Below, piece by piece: positions 15,320 to 57,155 of a DNA stretch of 64,000 nt. The translations under genes and the position numbers were made by a program. How positions within the stretch are numbered: position 1 is the stretch's first letter; every line of letters starts with the position of its first letter. The DNA is from a virus (taxonomy: Duplodnaviria; Heunggongvirae; Uroviricota; Caudoviricetes), in IMG/VR virus record IMGVR_UViG_3300045016_000151, positions 82,078 through 146,077 of that record; one strand, 5' to 3'. A model generated the notes under the pieces. That model made no database searches, was not told where the DNA came from, and was given only the letters and a program-made list of their open reading frames with translations.

Positions 15320-15722
15320 CTGCTTTCAGTTTGCATTCAGAGATAAATTTGATTATGTAGCGAAACAACTCGAGATTGCTACAGCATTGGACTCCAGTAA
15401 AATCTCCGTGCCTTTCTCCGTTGTACATTTAAATAATTTTTGGTTATTCTTACCAAGTACACAGCATGATGATACGCATCATATGATTATTACAAATGTA
15501 GTTTCATCGCTCGCACATGTATTTTTATCAAGAATACGTATGCGTGTACATTACACAAGACCACAGTCTATCAATGTCATAGGAATTATAGAGGGCCATA
15601 TTGGATTGAATTCACGACGATTATTTAATTCTATAAGTATGCAACCAGATATGTTTATGAAAGCACCGACATATGAAACTATGCGAGAAGACTTAAGAAC
15701 CGGTTTATGGATAACAACTTAA
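15279..15722 (+). CDS. hypothetical protein
   Basis: ORF in operon; start uncertain. Confidence 0.5.
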   Translation: MISMQPFQMTDNYDCFQFAFRDKFDYVAKQLEIATALDSSKISVPFSVVHLNNFWLFLPSTQHDDTHHMIITNVVSSLAHVFLSRIRMRVHYTRPQSINVIGIIEGHIGLNSRRLFNSISMQPDMFMKAPTYETMREDLRTGLWITT

Positions 15723-16774
15723 TCTTTGCTATTGAAAAACTAGGGGCCACGATCTACTTATTTGGTGAATGTGTTTGGGCAACAGCATTAAAAATAAAAG
15801 TGCAGTATTATAAGTTAGCTATAATTGGAGTAACCCGCGAACAGGTAATTCCATTGTTAGATAACTATACATTGCACAGAACAAAACCAACACTGCAGAT
15901 AAGTGACGGTGACACAACATATGAATTGTATTTTTTGAATAGTATAGATAGTGTACCATTTGATCCTATATCGATAAACAATGCTATTCTCAGTCTGGAT
16001 GGCAAGGTATTTCGCGCCGATGATTTAAAGAATAAACTCATTCGTGCCAATACCTCCACATTTCTCGATTACCCCGAAGAGTTATTACGGATATGTCGCA
16101 TTGCTGCGCAAACCTCTTTTGCCGTAGATGTCCCAACGTGGGTAACAATGTACGAACATTCACGATTGATCAAGAATGTAGTAAAGAGCAACCCAGCATA
16201 TATTGGAAAACAATTGCAACAAATAATTATGTCAAAAAATCCGGGGCATGGTTTTCGTTTGATGTTAGAGACCAACGTACTACAATATATTTTTCCAGAG
16301 TTAGCACGTTGTAACAATATTCGTCAAACACGTCGGGGCGAAGGCATCAATGTATTTGAACACATATTGTTGGCTATAAATGCGGCAGCACTTGAAGAAG
16401 AAATCAGATGGACTATGTTATTTCATGATATGGCAAAACCAACTACTATGGATATTACTTCCGATGGTAAAATGCATTTTTTCAAACACGAATTTGTAGG
16501 CGCCGAGCTCGCTGTAACATACATGACAAAATATAAATTACCGCCGTCTCTAATACAAACTGTAAAGATATTAATAGAGAATCATATGTTTGACGCGGAC
16601 CCGAAGTTAACCGTAAAGGGCGTGCGTCGTCTAATTAAAAGAGTCGGCAAAGAAAACATATATCAACTTATAAAAGTGCGAGAAGCGGATAGACGTGGTA
16701 CCATGGTTCCACCGTCAAATGATAAGATAGAATTGTTAAAAACCAAAATCGAAAAAGAATTATCAAATGTTTAA
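15707..16774 (+). CDS. CCA-adding-enzyme-like protein with degenerate NTase head and intact HD domain
   Basis: Overall layout of class II NTases; GGxVRD/DxD replaced by GECVWA/YYK; HD motifs FHDMAKP, HEFVGA, NHM, EAD intact. Confidence 0.7.
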   Translation: MDNNLIFAIEKLGATIYLFGECVWATALKIKVQYYKLAIIGVTREQVIPLLDNYTLHRTKPTLQISDGDTTYELYFLNSIDSVPFDPISINNAILSLDGKVFRADDLKNKLIRANTSTFLDYPEELLRICRIAAQTSFAVDVPTWVTMYEHSRLIKNVVKSNPAYIGKQLQQIIMSKNPGHGFRLMLETNVLQYIFPELARCNNIRQTRRGEGINVFEHILLAINAAALEEEIRWTMLFHDMAKPTTMDITSDGKMHFFKHEFVGAELAVTYMTKYKLPPSLIQTVKILIENHMFDADPKLTVKGVRRLIKRVGKENIYQLIKVREADRRGTMVPPSNDKIELLKTKIEKELSNV

Positions 16775-26974: not shown

Positions 26975-27256
26975 ATGACTATACAAAAAGCTATTACGTT
27001 GATTCCCGATGAAGAGTTGAGAAAAATGTTTTATACCTTTCTTGACAAACATAAACTTCTTGATCATGAAGTAATTACTTGTTACCAAAACATGGGCGGG
27101 ATTATATATATTGAACCATTTACTGCAATCGTTAAAAATAATCGTACAACACTTTCGCCTGTTCCATCATATCATGTATCCGGAGGATACCATGGGCCGA
27201 ATCAGGAGTTAATGTGTTTATATGGTTTGATGTCGATTTTGCTTGACACTAAATAA
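26975..27256 (+). CDS. hypothetical protein
   Basis: ORF after hairpin at 26945-26964. Confidence 0.5.
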   Translation: MTIQKAITLIPDEELRKMFYTFLDKHKLLDHEVITCYQNMGGIIYIEPFTAIVKNNRTTLSPVPSYHVSGGYHGPNQELMCLYGLMSILLDTK

Positions 27257-27271
27257 AAAATTACGTATATT
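27243..27271 (+). promoter_or_regulatory. sigma70-type promoter at start of RNA island
   Basis: TTGACA-17 nt-TATATT; ATG of 44-aa ORF at 27277. Confidence 0.65.
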
Positions 27272-27414
27272 AATACATGCAATTCTTCGAACAAAAATAT
27301 CGCACATTTATTGTAGGACTTGATAACCCATCTGTCATGCCCTGTGGGTGGTATTTATGTTCACCATCCAGACCCCATCTATGGGGCGTACTGACAAGGT
27401 CCGTGAACTAAACC

Positions 27415-27487
27415 GCCGCTATCATCTAGTGGCCCAGGATATAAGATTCTCAATCTTAATACACGAGTTCGAATCTCGTTAGCGGTA
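27415..27487 (+). tRNA. tRNA-Glu(CTC)
   Basis: Full cloverleaf. Confidence 0.85.
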
Positions 27488-27492
27488 CAAAA

Positions 27493-27759
27493 ATTACAAG
27501 AGAACCCGTTACACCACGGTGAGGAACTTCAGCTCATACAAAGAAGCGAGTGGGAGAAGAATGTGACCAAGATATACTGAGGAAGTTTGTGGCTATCTTT
27601 CCGAACGTAATTCAAAGCCATCACATTATTCGTTCGCACCACCAGCAAGTATGCAACTCAAACAGACCCAGGACGGCACGCTTCTTGTCTAATAACGGTC
27701 GGGTAGAGGCCAATAGAGAAATGACGGGATAAAACAAAAAGCTGGGTAAGCTCGGTAAT
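27493..27759 (+). ncRNA. rnpB: compact RNase P RNA candidate
   Basis: GAGGAACTTCAGCT (27521-34) pairs AGCTGGGT (27740-47) as P4 with bulged U; P2 CCCGTTA/TGACGGG; AGAGAAAT and AACAAAAA in CR-IV/V positions; P15 loop with GGGTAG. Confidence 0.75.
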
Positions 27760-27763
27760 AAAT

Positions 27764-27836
27764 GGCGCTATCGTCTAGTTGGTTAGGACACGACTCTTTC
27801 AAGGTCAAAAGGCCGGTTCAATCCCGGCTAGCGCTA
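27764..27836 (+). tRNA. tRNA-Glu(TTC)
   Basis: Full cloverleaf. Confidence 0.85.
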
Positions 27837-27839
27837 CTA

Positions 27840-51043: not shown

Positions 51044-51583
51044 ATGGAAAGCAAAAGATTGTTATTTCAACGTGAAATAGAAACATCTATCAACGATATT
51101 CGGGATTACAGTGATTTTATATTTGCAGTTGGTTTGGATATAAAGGAACTCACACCAGAGGTGTTGAAACTAGATATTATACCAACAATGATAATTTCAA
51201 CATCCGCGTTTAACGCATTGGCCAAAATGAATATCCCAAAAGATTTTCTGGATAAATTAAAACAGGCTTCAATGTATACTTGTCCTTGGACTGAAAATAC
51301 GTATTTCGGTACATTACCGATAGCAGTGGCAACATTTAATAAAAACAATTATAAAGACTTATTAACGGATTATCAATTAGACACCGAATTTCATCTCAGT
51401 ATGAATGGCGGCGATGTTAAGAAATTACTTATTCCAAACCTTGTAGAATTATCATTTATAGGGCATGGTTATACGTCTGCAACACTTCCCAGCGATGGTT
51501 CCCATACACTAGTACTTTGTACGATTGAATTACCTAATAAAGATTTTGCTATCTGTTTAACTTATGCATGGCACAACAAATGA
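51044..51583 (+). CDS. hypothetical protein
   Basis: AAGG SD. Confidence 0.65.
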   Translation: MESKRLLFQREIETSINDIRDYSDFIFAVGLDIKELTPEVLKLDIIPTMIISTSAFNALAKMNIPKDFLDKLKQASMYTCPWTENTYFGTLPIAVATFNKNNYKDLLTDYQLDTEFHLSMNGGDVKKLLIPNLVELSFIGHGYTSATLPSDGSHTLVLCTIELPNKDFAICLTYAWHNK

Positions 51584-52281
51584 TCAGAATATTTCAAGTT
51601 GGTGGTAGTGTTAGAGATTTAATATTACGCGTTAAGTCAAAAGATATTGATTATGCAGTAGTAGCAGTTTCTTGGGAAGAAATGAGAAATTATATTCTTG
51701 CCAAAGGCAAAATATATCTCGAGACCCCAGAATACTTCACTATCCGTGCTCATATAGATGGTTTTGGTGATGCTGATTTTGTGTTATGTCGAAAGGATGG
51801 TAACTATTCAGACGGTCGTAGACCTGATACTGTTGAGTTGGGCACATTGTATGACGATCTAGCCAGACGTGATTTCACAATGAATGCTATTGCGATCGAC
51901 ATGCAAGATCCAAAGCGTCCTTTTATTGACCCGCATGGTGGGTTGATTGACATACAAAATAATCTCATTAAATGTGTTGGTAAGCCCGAAGATCGCTTCA
52001 ATGAAGATGCTTTACGCATGCTACGCGCGTTAAGATTTGCCGTAACCAAAAAAATGCAGATCGACTTATCAGTAGAAGCATGTTTTGGTAATCGTGAGTT
52101 ATTAAACAAATTGAATAATCGTATTTCTTGGGAACGTAAAAAAGACGAATTGTTTAAAATGTTCAAAACAAGTACAACACGAACTTTTGAATTGTTTGAT
52201 CGATACCCATCAATGCGCGACGTATTACTTTCTGATGACAAACCTTTGTGGCTTGAACCAACTTTACGAGCACGCCCATGA
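51580..52281 (+). CDS. short tRNA nucleotidyltransferase (CCA/poly(A) polymerase family)
   Basis: VGGSVRD, DID, DLARRDFTMNA, EDALRMLRALRF; no HD domain. Confidence 0.88.
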   Translation: MIRIFQVGGSVRDLILRVKSKDIDYAVVAVSWEEMRNYILAKGKIYLETPEYFTIRAHIDGFGDADFVLCRKDGNYSDGRRPDTVELGTLYDDLARRDFTMNAIAIDMQDPKRPFIDPHGGLIDIQNNLIKCVGKPEDRFNEDALRMLRALRFAVTKKMQIDLSVEACFGNRELLNKLNNRISWERKKDELFKMFKTSTTRTFELFDRYPSMRDVLLSDDKPLWLEPTLRARP

Positions 52282-56791: not shown

Positions 56792-57079
56792 CAGTAAAAA
56801 ATGAAACTATGCAGTTAAAACCACCAAATGGGCCGGGGATCCATAGCCTCGTTAACCTCCTTTGGGCTGGCGTGTTGCCCATTAACCTTATTGGTTAGCT
56901 ATGAACAATCATAGTACTGTTCGCCAGAACTGCATTCCAGAATGATTTAGGTTAATTGCGAAAGCCCCTGGAACAGGGGAGTCCTACGCATACTTACCCG
57001 TCGTAGGTGAGCCTGTCTAATTATGGGTTAGACCCAGGGTCGATCCAAAAGGTAAGCTCGATCGAAATTAACTATTGTC
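56790..57079 (+). ncRNA. unclassified ornate RNA candidate (about 290 nt)
   Basis: At least nine helices including crossing pairs and a CTTACC/GGTAAG kissing loop. Confidence 0.6.
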
Positions 57080-57150
57080 TGCGTGGCCGAGAACGAAATA
57101 AGCACTAGTCTCTAAAACTAGTTACACGGGGTCGTTCCCCGTCGCAGACA
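57077..57150 (+). tRNA. amber-anticodon tRNA (CTA) with non-canonical D/T loops
   Basis: GTCTGCG/CGCAGAC; CTAGT-CTCTAAA-ACTAG; T loop GTCGTTC; no GG in D loop. Confidence 0.75.
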
Positions 57151-57155
57151 CTTAT

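What the first reader, a model, noticed from the sequence alone, without database searches (positions are those of the whole stretch)
27493..27759. Phage-encoded compact RNase P RNA between two tRNA-Glu genes
Seen: a P4 helix ACT(T)CAGCT/AGCTGGGT with the bulged U, flanked by GAGGA and AACAAAA as in CR-I and CR-V. Also P1 ATTAC..GAG/CTC..GTAAT, P2 CCCGTTA/TGACGGG preceded by AGAGAAAT (CR-IV-like), a minimal P3, a P5/P7 helix ACAAAGAAGCG/CGCTTCTTGT, P15 GTCT/AGGC with an L15 GGGTAG, and no P18. The P4 sequence departs from the near-invariant GUCCGG/CCGGCUU but keeps every pair, which argues for selection on structure. Known: RNase P RNA is the ribozyme that makes tRNA 5' ends and is rarely reported in phages. 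Inference: the phage supplies its own 267-nt ribozyme for its tRNA array, probably using host RnpA.
Basis: partly seen in the sequence, partly recalled or inferred. Interest (0 to 1): 0.9.

Follow-up and report, generated by a model that had tools for sequence, protein, structure and literature searches.

The report
Phage-encoded miniature RNase P ribozyme gene
A 215-kb uncultured tailed phage carries, wedged between two of its tRNA genes, a 267-base stripped-down copy of RNase P RNA (the ribozyme that trims new tRNAs); it belongs to a family of at least 35 such phage genes that standard databases miss, though whether it actually cuts RNA is untested.

Summary
The finding holds. Window 27493-27759 (+) is a real, intact homologue of RNase P RNA, encoded 4 nt after tRNA-Glu(CUC) and 4 nt before tRNA-Glu(UUC).

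Rfam does not detect it directly. A covariance model built only from seven other phage elements hits it at 89.7 bits (E~4e-21), the only hit in the 215-kb genome. Those relatives hit Rfam bacterial RNase P at E down to 5e-17.

On 35 members, 95.7% of cells pair (33-45% when slid). 34 of 42 pairs show compensatory changes, including the P4 and P6 pseudoknots that the model did not fit.

The window keeps 40 of 42 family-invariant positions: CR-I, the bulged U, J5/15, L15 GGUA, CR-IV and CR-V. It lacks P18 and most of the specificity domain.

Two reader assignments are wrong. Its 'P5/P7' helix is the P6 pseudoknot, and its 'P15 GTCT/AGGC' is not supported.

The phage has no RnpA or HARP gene, but it does encode a CCA-adding-type enzyme. 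Catalysis and the protein partner remain inferred.

I found no paper describing phage RNase P RNAs; an inactive orthopoxvirus RNase P-like RNA is the only viral precedent. This scan has met the family before on other DNA, including an identical 267-nt copy.

The parts
27243..27271 (+). Sigma-70-like promoter TTGACA-17-TATATT that could drive leader, tRNA-Glu, RNase P RNA and tRNA-Glu as one transcript
   Evidence: 11 of 12 matches. This is a consensus match only, and the number of such sites in the region is not above shuffles.
27415..27488 (+). tRNA-Glu(CUC); it ends 4 nt before P1 of the ribozyme gene
   Evidence: 61.4 bits
27493..27502 (+). P1 5' strand (ATTAC + GAG), pairs with 27751-27759
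   Evidence: Compensatory change in L260 (ATAAC/GTTAT). P1 covaries in the seeds: 7 of 8 pairs.
27505..27511 (+). P2 5' strand CCCGTTA, pairs with 27722-27728 TGACGGG
   Evidence: (97.5% paired, 5 of 6 pairs compensatory)
27512..27521 (+). Minimal P3 hairpin CAC-CACG-GTG
   Evidence: Relatives have longer P3 stems with GNRA loops.
27521..27534 (+). CR-I GAGGAA and P4 5' strand ACT(T)CAGCT, with bulged U at 27529
   Evidence: 8 of 8 pairs; bulged U invariant in all members tested; P4 92.6% paired, 6 of 8 pairs compensatory, not fitted by the model
27535..27539 (+). P5 5' strand CATAC, pairs with GTATG 27649-27653
27541..27548 (+).
   Evidence: (P6 100% paired, 4 of 6 pairs compensatory)
27550..27642 (+). 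Remnant of the specificity domain: P7 (GTGG/CCAC) closing an 85-nt irregular arm (27554-27638). The family-conserved internal loop is GAGA... / ...TCGTTCGCA, and the distal hairpin is variable.
   Evidence: (P7 pairs compensatory). Relatives carry arms of about 30 to more than 150 nt at the same place.
27653..27659 (+). J5/15 GCAA and P15 5' strand CTC, pairs with GAG 27706-27708
   Evidence: The middle pair occurs as C-G, U-A, G-C and A-U across members.
27665..27700 (+). P16 (GACC/GGTC) and P17 (GGAC/GTCT). The P17 loop holds the 3' strand of P6.
27701..27705 (+). L15 loop GGGTA (the GGU that binds the tRNA 3' CCA end in type A enzymes)
   Evidence: GGTAG is invariant in the family. The CCA-binding role comes from established knowledge of type A RNase P and was not tested here.
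27715..27728 (+). CR-IV-like AGAGAAAT followed by P2 3' strand TGACGGG. There is no P18 between P15 and CR-IV.
   Evidence: (mapping of a relative onto the RF00010 consensus)
27734..27747 (+). CR-V ACAAAA (family consensus ACAGAA) and P4 3' strand AGCTGGGT
   Evidence: ACAAAA is also found in L135, L168, L238 and L260.
27751..27759 (+). P1 3' strand (CTC + GTAAT); it ends 4 nt before the next tRNA
27764..27837 (+). tRNA-Glu(UUC). RNase P cleavage at its +1 would create the ribozyme RNA's 3' end.
   Evidence: The cleavage consequence is inference.
51568..52281 (+). Phage gene with a PolyA_pol (CCA-adding enzyme type) nucleotidyltransferase head domain: a second tRNA-maturation function in the same array
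   Evidence: (PF01743, 74.6 bits, E=1.4e-21; genome 133669-134046 = window 51592-51969)

Best explanation
The segment is a transcribed gene for a reduced RNase P RNA of bacterial type A ancestry.

What it keeps: the whole catalytic domain. That is P1-P5, the P4 and P6 pseudoknots, P15-P17 with the L15 GGU loop, and CR-I, CR-IV and CR-V with the bulged U.

What it has lost: P18 and nearly all of the specificity domain. The latter is replaced by one P7-closed arm.

How it is probably made (inferred): as part of a polycistronic tRNA precursor. It would be freed by the tRNA-processing machinery itself, with 3' trimming of the upstream tRNA-Glu and RNase P cleavage at +1 of the downstream tRNA-Glu.

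What it probably does (inferred): pairs with the host's RnpA protein and adds 5'-leader-cleaving capacity for the phage's ~35 tRNAs. Many of those tRNAs abut ORFs, so the same cuts may also separate mRNAs.

Shown here: homology, intactness, selection on structure, genomic embedding, and absence of a phage RnpA or HARP gene. Not shown: transcription, catalysis, and the protein partner.
For: 1. The family model R1, built from seven other phage elements without the window, hits 27505-27747 at 89.7 bits, E=3.9e-21. It is the only hit in the window and in the genome.
2. Family members hit Rfam RNase P models significantly:
   - L241: RF00010, 63.5 bits, E=4.9e-17.
   - L121: RF00010, 57.1 bits, E=7.4e-15.
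   - L243: RF00010, 45.2 bits, E=7.7e-11.
   - L119: RF00373, E=1.4e-6.
   - L242: RF02357 (RNaseP-T), E=2e-4.
   - In the L121 alignment the S-domain and P18 are deleted.
3. Covariation:
   - On the sequence-only MAFFT seed alignment, 97.1% of cells pair against 33-46% when slid. 35 of 50 pairs are compensatory and 0 of 500 shuffles reach this.
   - On 35 members, 95.7% pair against 33-45% slid, with 34 of 42 pairs compensatory. P4 (92.6%) and P6 (96-98%) were not part of the model.
   - RNAalifold independently recovers P1, P3, P4, P5, P7 and P15-P17.
4. P4 is 8 of 8 pairs in the window. Nine different 5'-strand variants are compensated across members, and the bulged U is invariant.
5. The window keeps 40 of 42 positions that are at least 90% conserved in the family. 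Both deviations are at the base of P2.
6. The nearest relative, L260, has the same tRNA-flanked layout. It differs by compensatory changes in P1, P2, P4, P5, P6 and P7.
7. At least 13 of 35 members lie in tRNA arrays on the tRNA strand. In six (window, L243, L135, L143, L255, L267) the P4 3' end is 17-19 nt from a tRNA's first base.
8. The phage has 35 CCA-less tRNA genes in the window, its own PF01743 nucleotidyltransferase, no RnpA and no HARP.
Against: - There is no direct Rfam RNase P hit for the window, even when the 275 nt are searched alone at E<=10.
- The single-sequence fold is no more stable than shuffles.
- The specificity domain, with CR-II and CR-III that read the tRNA elbow, is essentially gone. 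In bacterial enzymes that lowers substrate affinity.
- CR-V reads ACAAAA rather than ACAGAA.
- The one earlier viral RNase P-like RNA (orthopoxvirus) had no pre-tRNA cleavage activity in vitro (PMC3001073, its ref. 93). Resemblance therefore does not guarantee catalysis.
- No expression data could be obtained.
Confidence: 0.6

Rival explanations
1. Catalytically active RNase P RNA that works without bacterial RnpA: either RNA-alone in vivo or with an unrelated phage-encoded RNA-binding protein.
For: - The phage encodes no RnpA.
- In four other members a small WYL_2 (Sm-like SH3 barrel) gene sits 7-27 nt upstream of the RNA on the same strand. This hints that some lineages bring an RNA-binding partner.
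- Natural S-domain-less type T RNase P RNAs work with non-RnpA proteins (established knowledge, not tested here).
Against: - No neighbouring gene is conserved across the family.
- The window's phage has no WYL_2 gene.
- The regions that contact RnpA in bacterial holoenzymes (P3, CR-IV, CR-V, P15) are the best-conserved parts. This fits use of the ubiquitous host protein.
Confidence: 0.15
2. Non-catalytic mimic: an RNase P RNA look-alike that binds and sequesters or redirects host RnpA (or pre-tRNAs), remodelling host tRNA maturation instead of cutting RNA itself.
For: - Loss of the S-domain and P18.
- CR-V has a G-to-A change in this copy.
- Precedent of an inactive viral RNase P-like RNA that was discussed as a possible decoy (PMC3001073).
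Against: - A decoy would need only the protein-binding surface. Here the active-site elements are under selection across 35 members: the bulged U, the P4 geometry, the J5/15 A's, the L15 GGU and the P6 pseudoknot.
- The gene sits among the phage's own tRNA substrates.
- Sequestering RnpA would also hurt the phage's 35 tRNAs.
Confidence: 0.12
3. Decaying relic of a captured host rnpB gene with no present function.
For: Large deletions relative to bacterial RNase P RNA, and no direct Rfam hit.
Against: - 40 of 42 family-invariant positions are kept.
- Every helix is intact.
- There are compensatory changes against the nearest relative in six helices.
- The family is wide and diverse and maintains its pairing.
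Confidence: 0.03
4. Chance resemblance or an unrelated structured RNA or small ORF (for example the 60-codon GTG frame at 27550-27732).
For: An ORF of 60 codons overlaps the element. The MFE z-score is unremarkable.
Against: - E~4e-21 against the family model.
- Transitive Rfam hits.
- RNA-level covariation, including two pseudoknots.
- The arm that the ORF spans varies in length among relatives.
Confidence: 0.02

Closest known systems
Bacterial type A RNase P RNA (E. coli M1 RNA / rnpB; Rfam RF00010)
   Same: - Same order and topology of P1-P2-P3-P4-P5-P6-P7 ... P15-P16-P17-P2'-P4'-P1'.
- CR-I GAGGAA with a bulged U in P4.
- J5/15 GCAA.
- L15 GGUA.
- CR-IV AGAnAAAUG.
- CR-V ACArAA.
- The P6 pseudoknot, a type A hallmark.
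- Relatives hit RF00010 at E down to 5e-17.
   Different: - About 267 nt instead of about 350-400.
- The specificity domain (P8-P14 with CR-II and CR-III) is replaced by one irregular arm.
- No P18.
- The P4 sequence is not the near-invariant GUCCGG/CCGGCUU.
- It scores below Rfam's gathering cut-off, and the window is not detected at all.
- It is encoded by a phage inside a tRNA array, with no rnpA in the genome.
Type T RNase P RNA of Thermoproteaceae (Rfam RF02357, 'RNaseP truncated form')
   Same: A natural RNase P RNA that keeps the catalytic domain and has lost almost the whole specificity domain, about 200 nt long. One family member (L242) gives its best Rfam hit to this model (37.1 bits, E=2e-4).
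   Different: Type T is archaeal and works with archaeal Rpp proteins. The phage RNAs have bacterial type A features (P6 and the L15/P16/P17 arm), and their better Rfam hits are to RF00010. The reduction therefore looks convergent, not inherited.
Orthopoxvirus (camelpox) RNase P-like RNA (ref. 93 in PMC3001073)
   Same: A virus-encoded RNA proposed from sequence comparison to resemble bacterial/archaeal RNase P RNA.
   Different: - That RNA showed no pre-tRNA processing activity in vitro and only 'some secondary structure similarity' (PMC3001073).
- It belongs to a eukaryotic virus that has no tRNA array.
- The phage family has full core conservation, heavy covariation and tRNA-array embedding.
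Small self-cleaving ribozymes next to phage tRNA genes (hammerhead and HDV-like 'theta' ribozymes)
   Same: Phage-encoded ribozymes placed beside tRNA genes, with a presumed role in tRNA end formation.
   Different: Those are cis-acting self-cleavers of a different fold. I know of them only from an earlier scan note (e1-1833620) and did not check them here. The present RNA is a homologue of the trans-acting RNase P ribozyme.

Membership tests
RNase P RNA, bacterial type A (Rfam RF00010 / clan CL00002) | Score at or above the Rfam gathering cut-off (100 bits) | tested here: not met
   The window has no RNase P hit at gathering, at E<=10 on 801 nt, at E<=10 on the 275 nt alone, or in the whole genome. 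Relatives score 45-63 bits: significant, but below the cut-off.
RNase P RNA, bacterial type A (Rfam RF00010 / clan CL00002) | Homology to recognised RNase P RNAs | tested here: met
   Transitive. The window scores 89.7 bits, E=3.9e-21, against family model R1. Family members hit RF00010, RF00373 and RF02357 at E from 4.9e-17 to 2e-4.
RNase P RNA, bacterial type A (Rfam RF00010 / clan CL00002) | P4 long-range pseudoknot with a bulged U, flanked by CR-I (GAGGAA) and CR-V (ACAGAA-like) | tested here: met
   The window has 8 of 8 pairs with bulged U 27529. CR-I is exact and CR-V reads ACAAAA. Covariation: 6 of 8 pairs compensatory, 92.6% paired, not fitted by the model.
RNase P RNA, bacterial type A (Rfam RF00010 / clan CL00002) | CR-IV (AGAnnAAU) between P15/P18 and the P2 3' strand | tested here: met
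   AGAGAAAT at 27715. It is invariant in the family and aligned to the RF00010 consensus via L121.
RNase P RNA, bacterial type A (Rfam RF00010 / clan CL00002) | P15-L15-P16-P17 arm with a GGU loop, plus the P6 pseudoknot (type A hallmark) | tested here: met
   P15 CTC/GAG, L15 GGGTA, P16, P17, and P6 AAGAAGCG/CGCTTCTT. All covary in the family.
RNase P RNA, bacterial type A (Rfam RF00010 / clan CL00002) | Specificity domain with CR-II and CR-III (P10-P12 module that reads the tRNA T/D-loop elbow) | tested here: not met
   About 140 model positions are deleted in the RF00010 alignment of L121. In the window only P7 and an 85-nt arm occupy that place, with no match to the S-domain.
RNase P RNA, bacterial type A (Rfam RF00010 / clan CL00002) | P18 hairpin with a GNRA loop | tested here: not met
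   Only 6 nt (GCCAAT, 27709-27714) lie between the P15 3' strand and CR-IV in the window. P18-like hairpins are present in some relatives, L122 and L240.
RNase P RNA, bacterial type A (Rfam RF00010 / clan CL00002) | Site-specific cleavage of pre-tRNA at +1, alone at high salt or with RnpA | not testable with these tools
   Needs biochemistry. No RNA sequencing runs were listed for this DNA.
RNase P RNA, bacterial type A (Rfam RF00010 / clan CL00002) | Partner protein RnpA (PF00825) available | tested here: inconclusive
   There is no RnpA or HARP gene in the 215-kb phage record. The host is unknown but presumably bacterial, and RnpA is near-universal in bacteria (established knowledge).
Type T RNase P RNA (Rfam RF02357) | Score at or above the gathering cut-off (60 bits) and archaeal-type core | tested here: not met
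   The window has no hit. The best family member, L242, scores 37.1 bits. The type A features P6 and P16/P17 are present. The likeness is one of outcome (S-domain loss), not membership.

The most novel reading that the evidence does not exclude
The phage runs a mitochondrion-like 'tRNA punctuation' mode of gene expression.
- Long transcripts of its tRNA/ORF array would be cut at every tRNA by an RNase P built around the phage's own S-domain-less ribozyme.
- Those cuts would release tRNAs, the ribozyme itself, and leaderless mRNAs whose AUG lies 1-5 nt after a tRNA.
- The phage's own CCA-adding enzyme would finish the tRNAs.

The miniature ribozyme would then be a gene-expression factor for the phage, not only a tRNA-maturation helper.
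Probability: 0.25. Interest if true: 0.9.

Novelty: new variant of a known kind. Interest (0 to 1): 0.8.

Why it matters
RNase P RNA is one of the few ribozymes shared by all domains of life, and it is normally treated as a strictly cellular housekeeping gene.

- **Natural minimisation.** A diverse family of phage-encoded versions that keep only the catalytic half shows that viruses can carry this core ribozyme. It offers dozens of natural 'minimisation experiments', about 160-380 nt, for asking what an RNase P needs in order to work.
- **Annotation gap.** These genes score below Rfam's cut-offs, or are invisible to it, as this one is.
- **Phage biology.** The family adds to the picture of large phages importing translation-related machinery. 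This phage has 35 tRNAs, a CCA-adding-type enzyme and a suppressor tRNA; earlier notes report Ro60/Y RNAs in the same genome, and relatives carry tmRNA and SRP RNA.
- **Testable link.** It suggests a connection to the tRNA-punctuated ORF layout seen in this window.

Tried and rejected
- **Stock Rfam models on the window.** No RNase P hit at gathering, at E<=10 on 801 nt, at E<=10 on 275 nt, or with RF00010 over the whole genome. Direct CM support fails for this copy.
- **Single-sequence folding, both strands.** z=+0.7 and +0.85, uninformative.
- **Pattern scans.** The first scan, a 15-mer, was too short and gave only chance hits; L001-L118 are to be ignored. A loose gapped pattern was mostly chance, but a few real members were recovered by the model.
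- **MAFFT with the window and L240.** It mis-anchored on a second GAGGAA, so model-guided alignment was used instead.
- **First pair count.** I used one bracket type, which wrongly nested P4 with P2. This was corrected.
- **Free search for the best P6 helix per member.** It is not significant against shuffled loops for individual sequences. P6 rests on column-wise covariation instead.
- **Genome-contig scan.** 15 of 16 hits were chance. One was real, on a 7.4-kb MAG contig.
- **RNA runs.** No RNA holder was listed.
- **Conserved neighbouring protein across the family.** None found.
- **Leader RNA 27278-27414.** The fold is not unusual, z=-1.0.
- **TAG recoding.** Not supported.
- **Literature.** Seven searches found no phage RNase P RNA paper. 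PMC6582537 concerns host rnpB and GOLLD only.
- **Complex prediction.** Not used; it takes proteins only.

Full report
**What is there**

The window is bases 82078-146077 of a 215-kb IMG/VR virus record. It is a tailed phage (a Baseplate_J protein) with a class II ribonucleotide reductase, NAPRTase and a DNA ligase. ARAGORN finds 35 tRNA genes on the + strand of the window.

The flagged segment 27493-27759 lies 4 nt after tRNA-Glu(CUC) (27415-27488) and 4 nt before tRNA-Glu(UUC) (27764-27837). A strong sigma-70-like promoter (TTGACA-17-TATATT, 27243-27271) lies upstream.

**Direct tests fail**

Rfam gives no RNase P match for the window under any of these searches:
- at gathering thresholds;
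- at E<=10 on 801 nt;
- at E<=10 on the 275 nt alone;
- with RF00010 over the whole phage genome.

The minimum-free-energy fold is no better than shuffles on either strand.

**Relatives rescue it**

A sensitive blastn against phage genomes matched only the 3' part. The hits were in two huge phages, LR756502 and LR756511. The LR756502 locus gives a significant hit to archaeal RNase P (RF00373, E=1.4e-6) in which the S-domain is skipped.

Pattern scans built on the shared L15/CR-IV block recovered more loci from viral contigs, metagenomes and one MAG contig. Several of these hit Rfam RNase P models significantly although below gathering:

| Locus | Rfam model | Bits | E-value |
|---|---|---|---|
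| L241 | RF00010 | 63.5 | 4.9e-17 |
| L121 | RF00010 | 57.1 | 7.4e-15 |
| L243 | RF00010 | 45.2 | 7.7e-11 |
| L242 | RF02357 (truncated type T) | 37.1 | 2e-4 |

The RF00010 alignment of L121 maps P1-P3, CR-I/P4, P5, J5/15, P15/L15, CR-IV and CR-V. It deletes about 140 positions of the specificity domain and the 23-position P18.

**The window is a member**

I built a covariance model (R1) from seven compact phage members, without the window. It hits window 27505-27747 at 89.7 bits, E=3.9e-21. That is the only hit in the 64-kb window and in the whole 215-kb genome. It also identifies 35 members among the fetched loci, 34 of them distinct, with P2-to-P4 spans of 161-333 nt.

**Structure and covariation**

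- On the sequence-only MAFFT alignment of the seven seeds I tested the canonical type A catalytic-domain structure, with P4 and P6 written as pseudoknots. It pairs 97.1% of cells, against 33-46% when the partners are slid. 35 of 50 pairs have double-sided changes, and 0 of 500 shuffles reach this. My first count used a wrong nesting.
- RNAalifold, with no input from me, recovers P1, P3, P4, P5, P7 and P15-P17 on the same alignment.
- On the 35-member model-guided alignment, 95.7% of cells pair (33-45% slid) and 34 of 42 pairs are compensatory.
- P4 and P6 were not part of the model, so the alignment could not have been fitted to them. They hold at 92.6% and 96-98%.
- An anchor-based check shows nine different P4 5'-strand variants, each compensated, and an invariant bulged U. 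The window pairs 8 of 8.
- The middle pair of P15 occurs as all four Watson-Crick combinations.

**Anatomy of the window copy**

| Element | Coordinates | Sequence / note |
|---|---|---|
| P1 | 27493-97 + 27500-02 / 27751-53 + 27755-59 | ATTAC..GAG / CTC..GTAAT |
| P2 | 27505-11 / 27722-28 | CCCGTTA / TGACGGG |
| P3 | 27512-21 | 3 bp and a 4-nt loop |
| CR-I | 27521-26 | GAGGAA |
| P4 | 27526-34 / 27740-47 | bulged U at 27529 |
| P5 | 27535-39 / 27649-53 | CATAC / GTATG |
| P6 | 27541-48 / 27679-86 | AAGAAGCG / CGCTTCTT |
| P7 | 27550-53 / 27639-42 | closes an 85-nt arm |
| J5/15 | 27653-56 | GCAA |
| P15 | 27657-59 / 27706-08 | CTC / GAG |
| P16 | 27665-68 / 27697-700 | GACC / GGTC |
| P17 | 27671-74 / 27687-90 | GGAC / GTCT |
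| L15 | 27701-05 | GGGTA |
| CR-IV | 27715-22 | AGAGAAAT |
| CR-V | 27734-39 | ACAAAA |

There is no P18. Its 'P15 GTCT/AGGC' conflicts with the family structure, in which GTCT is the 3' strand of P17.

The copy is intact. It keeps 40 of the 42 positions that are at least 90% conserved among the other 34 members, and both deviations are at the base of P2.

Its nearest relative is L260, at 74% identity over model columns. L260 lies between tRNA-Asp and tRNA-Glu(UUC) and differs by compensatory changes in P1, P2, P4, P5, P6 and P7. It shares the ACAAAA form of CR-V.

**Context and likely mechanism**

At least 13 of the 35 members sit in tRNA arrays on the tRNA strand. In six of them (window, L243, L135, L143, L255, L267) the 3' end of P4 is 17-19 nt from the first base of a tRNA. 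The RNA is thus effectively the 5' leader of that tRNA, and RNase P cleavage would make its 3' end (inference).

The phage has no RnpA (PF00825) and no HARP (PF08745) gene. It does encode a PolyA_pol/CCA-adding-type nucleotidyltransferase in the array (window 51568-52281). This matches the fact that none of its 35 tRNA genes encodes CCA.

The most economical reading is a catalytic RNA that borrows host RnpA. The parts that contact RnpA and the substrate cleavage site in bacterial holoenzymes are exactly the parts conserved here; that statement rests on established knowledge of type A RNase P and was not tested.

Natural S-domain-less RNase P RNAs (type T) show that such reduction is compatible with function. 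The inactive orthopoxvirus RNase P-like RNA (PMC3001073) shows that resemblance alone is not proof.

I put these odds on the three steps:
- about 0.95 that this is a genuine, selected RNase P RNA homologue;
- about 0.65 that it is catalytic;
- about 0.5 that host RnpA is the partner.

**Why a phage might need it**

17 of the 35 tRNAs are followed within 1-5 nt by an ATG that opens a 61-187-codon ORF. Random positions give a mean of 1.9 and a maximum of 8 in 2000 trials. This leaves no room for a ribosome-binding site. It suggests that tRNA processing also separates, and perhaps creates, leaderless mRNAs. Such a layout would raise the demand for RNase P. This is a hypothesis, not a result.

**Novelty**

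Seven full-text searches found no description of phage-encoded RNase P RNA. The library lacks most subscription journals, so this is not proof of absence.

The only viral precedent I found is the inactive camelpox RNase P-like RNA. 'First in any virus' should therefore not be claimed without that caveat.

Within this scan the family has been reported several times on other DNA, including an identical 267-nt element in another 215-kb record. One earlier report carries the mark 'part of it fell', and I could not see which part. I did not use those notes as evidence. Everything above was tested here.

The pattern scan of 185,579 species genomes found only one real member, on a 7.4-kb MAG contig with an adjacent tRNA. 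At that sensitivity the compact P18-less form is a phage trait.

Noticed in passing
window 27837-54555 (tRNA array): 17 of 35 tRNA genes are followed within 1-5 nt by an ATG opening a 61-187-codon ORF. Random positions give a mean of 1.9 and a maximum of 8. There is no room for a Shine-Dalgarno site, so the layout looks like tRNA punctuation with possibly leaderless mRNAs.
   Followed up: partly
window, all 35 tRNA genes: None encodes CCA. In nearly all of them (33 of 35 by comparison of ARAGORN and Rfam ends) the base after the discriminator is C, a conserved C74 without C75/A76. U is at position -1 in 19 of 35 leaders.
   Followed up: partly
window 51568-52281 (+) and 15707-16771 (+): Two nucleotidyltransferase-related genes: a PolyA_pol head domain (PF01743, 74.6 bits) inside the tRNA array, and a PolyA_pol_RNAbd + HD domain protein. 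Together they may form a split CCA-adding enzyme.
   Followed up: partly
window 57077-57151 (+): tRNA with anticodon CUA (amber suppressor; ARAGORN calls it Pyl). Reading TAG through adds only about 8% to the long open frames, and TAG is a rare stop (8 of 88). Genome-wide TAG recoding is therefore not supported.
   Followed up: partly
L226:1556-1819(-), L255:5762-6019(-), L262:459-701(-), L273:322-570(-): In four other family members a small WYL_2 protein (PF10902, Sm-like SH3 barrel, 81-88 aa) is encoded 7-27 nt upstream of the RNase P-like RNA on the same strand. It is a candidate RNA-binding partner in that sub-lineage. It is absent from the window's phage.
   Followed up: partly
L240:5303-5806, L135:929-1353, L121:5828-5917: Other phages that carry the RNase P-like RNA also carry tmRNA (L240, L135) or a bacterial SRP RNA hit (L121, 49.9 bits) within a few kb. 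These are clusters of 'housekeeping' non-coding RNAs in phages.
   Followed up: no
L122 (3' part of its element) and L240:538-914: These two family members have a hairpin inserted between CR-IV/P2 and CR-V, at the place of a bacterial P18; L122's hairpin has a GUAA loop. L240 is 377 nt long with a large middle domain. The family therefore spans nearly full-size to about 160-nt forms.
   Followed up: no
L241:681-883(-): This member has the canonical bacterial P4 sequence (GAGGAAAGTCCGG / ACAGAATCCGGCTTA). It lacks the P16/P17 arm and P6: its P15 is a simple hairpin holding the GGTA loop.
   Followed up: no
window 27278-27414 (+): A ~135-nt leader lies between the promoter and the first tRNA. 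It has a long hairpin (27333-27392 region) and a terminator-like stem at 27328-27351. The fold is not more stable than shuffles, z=-1.0.
   Followed up: partly
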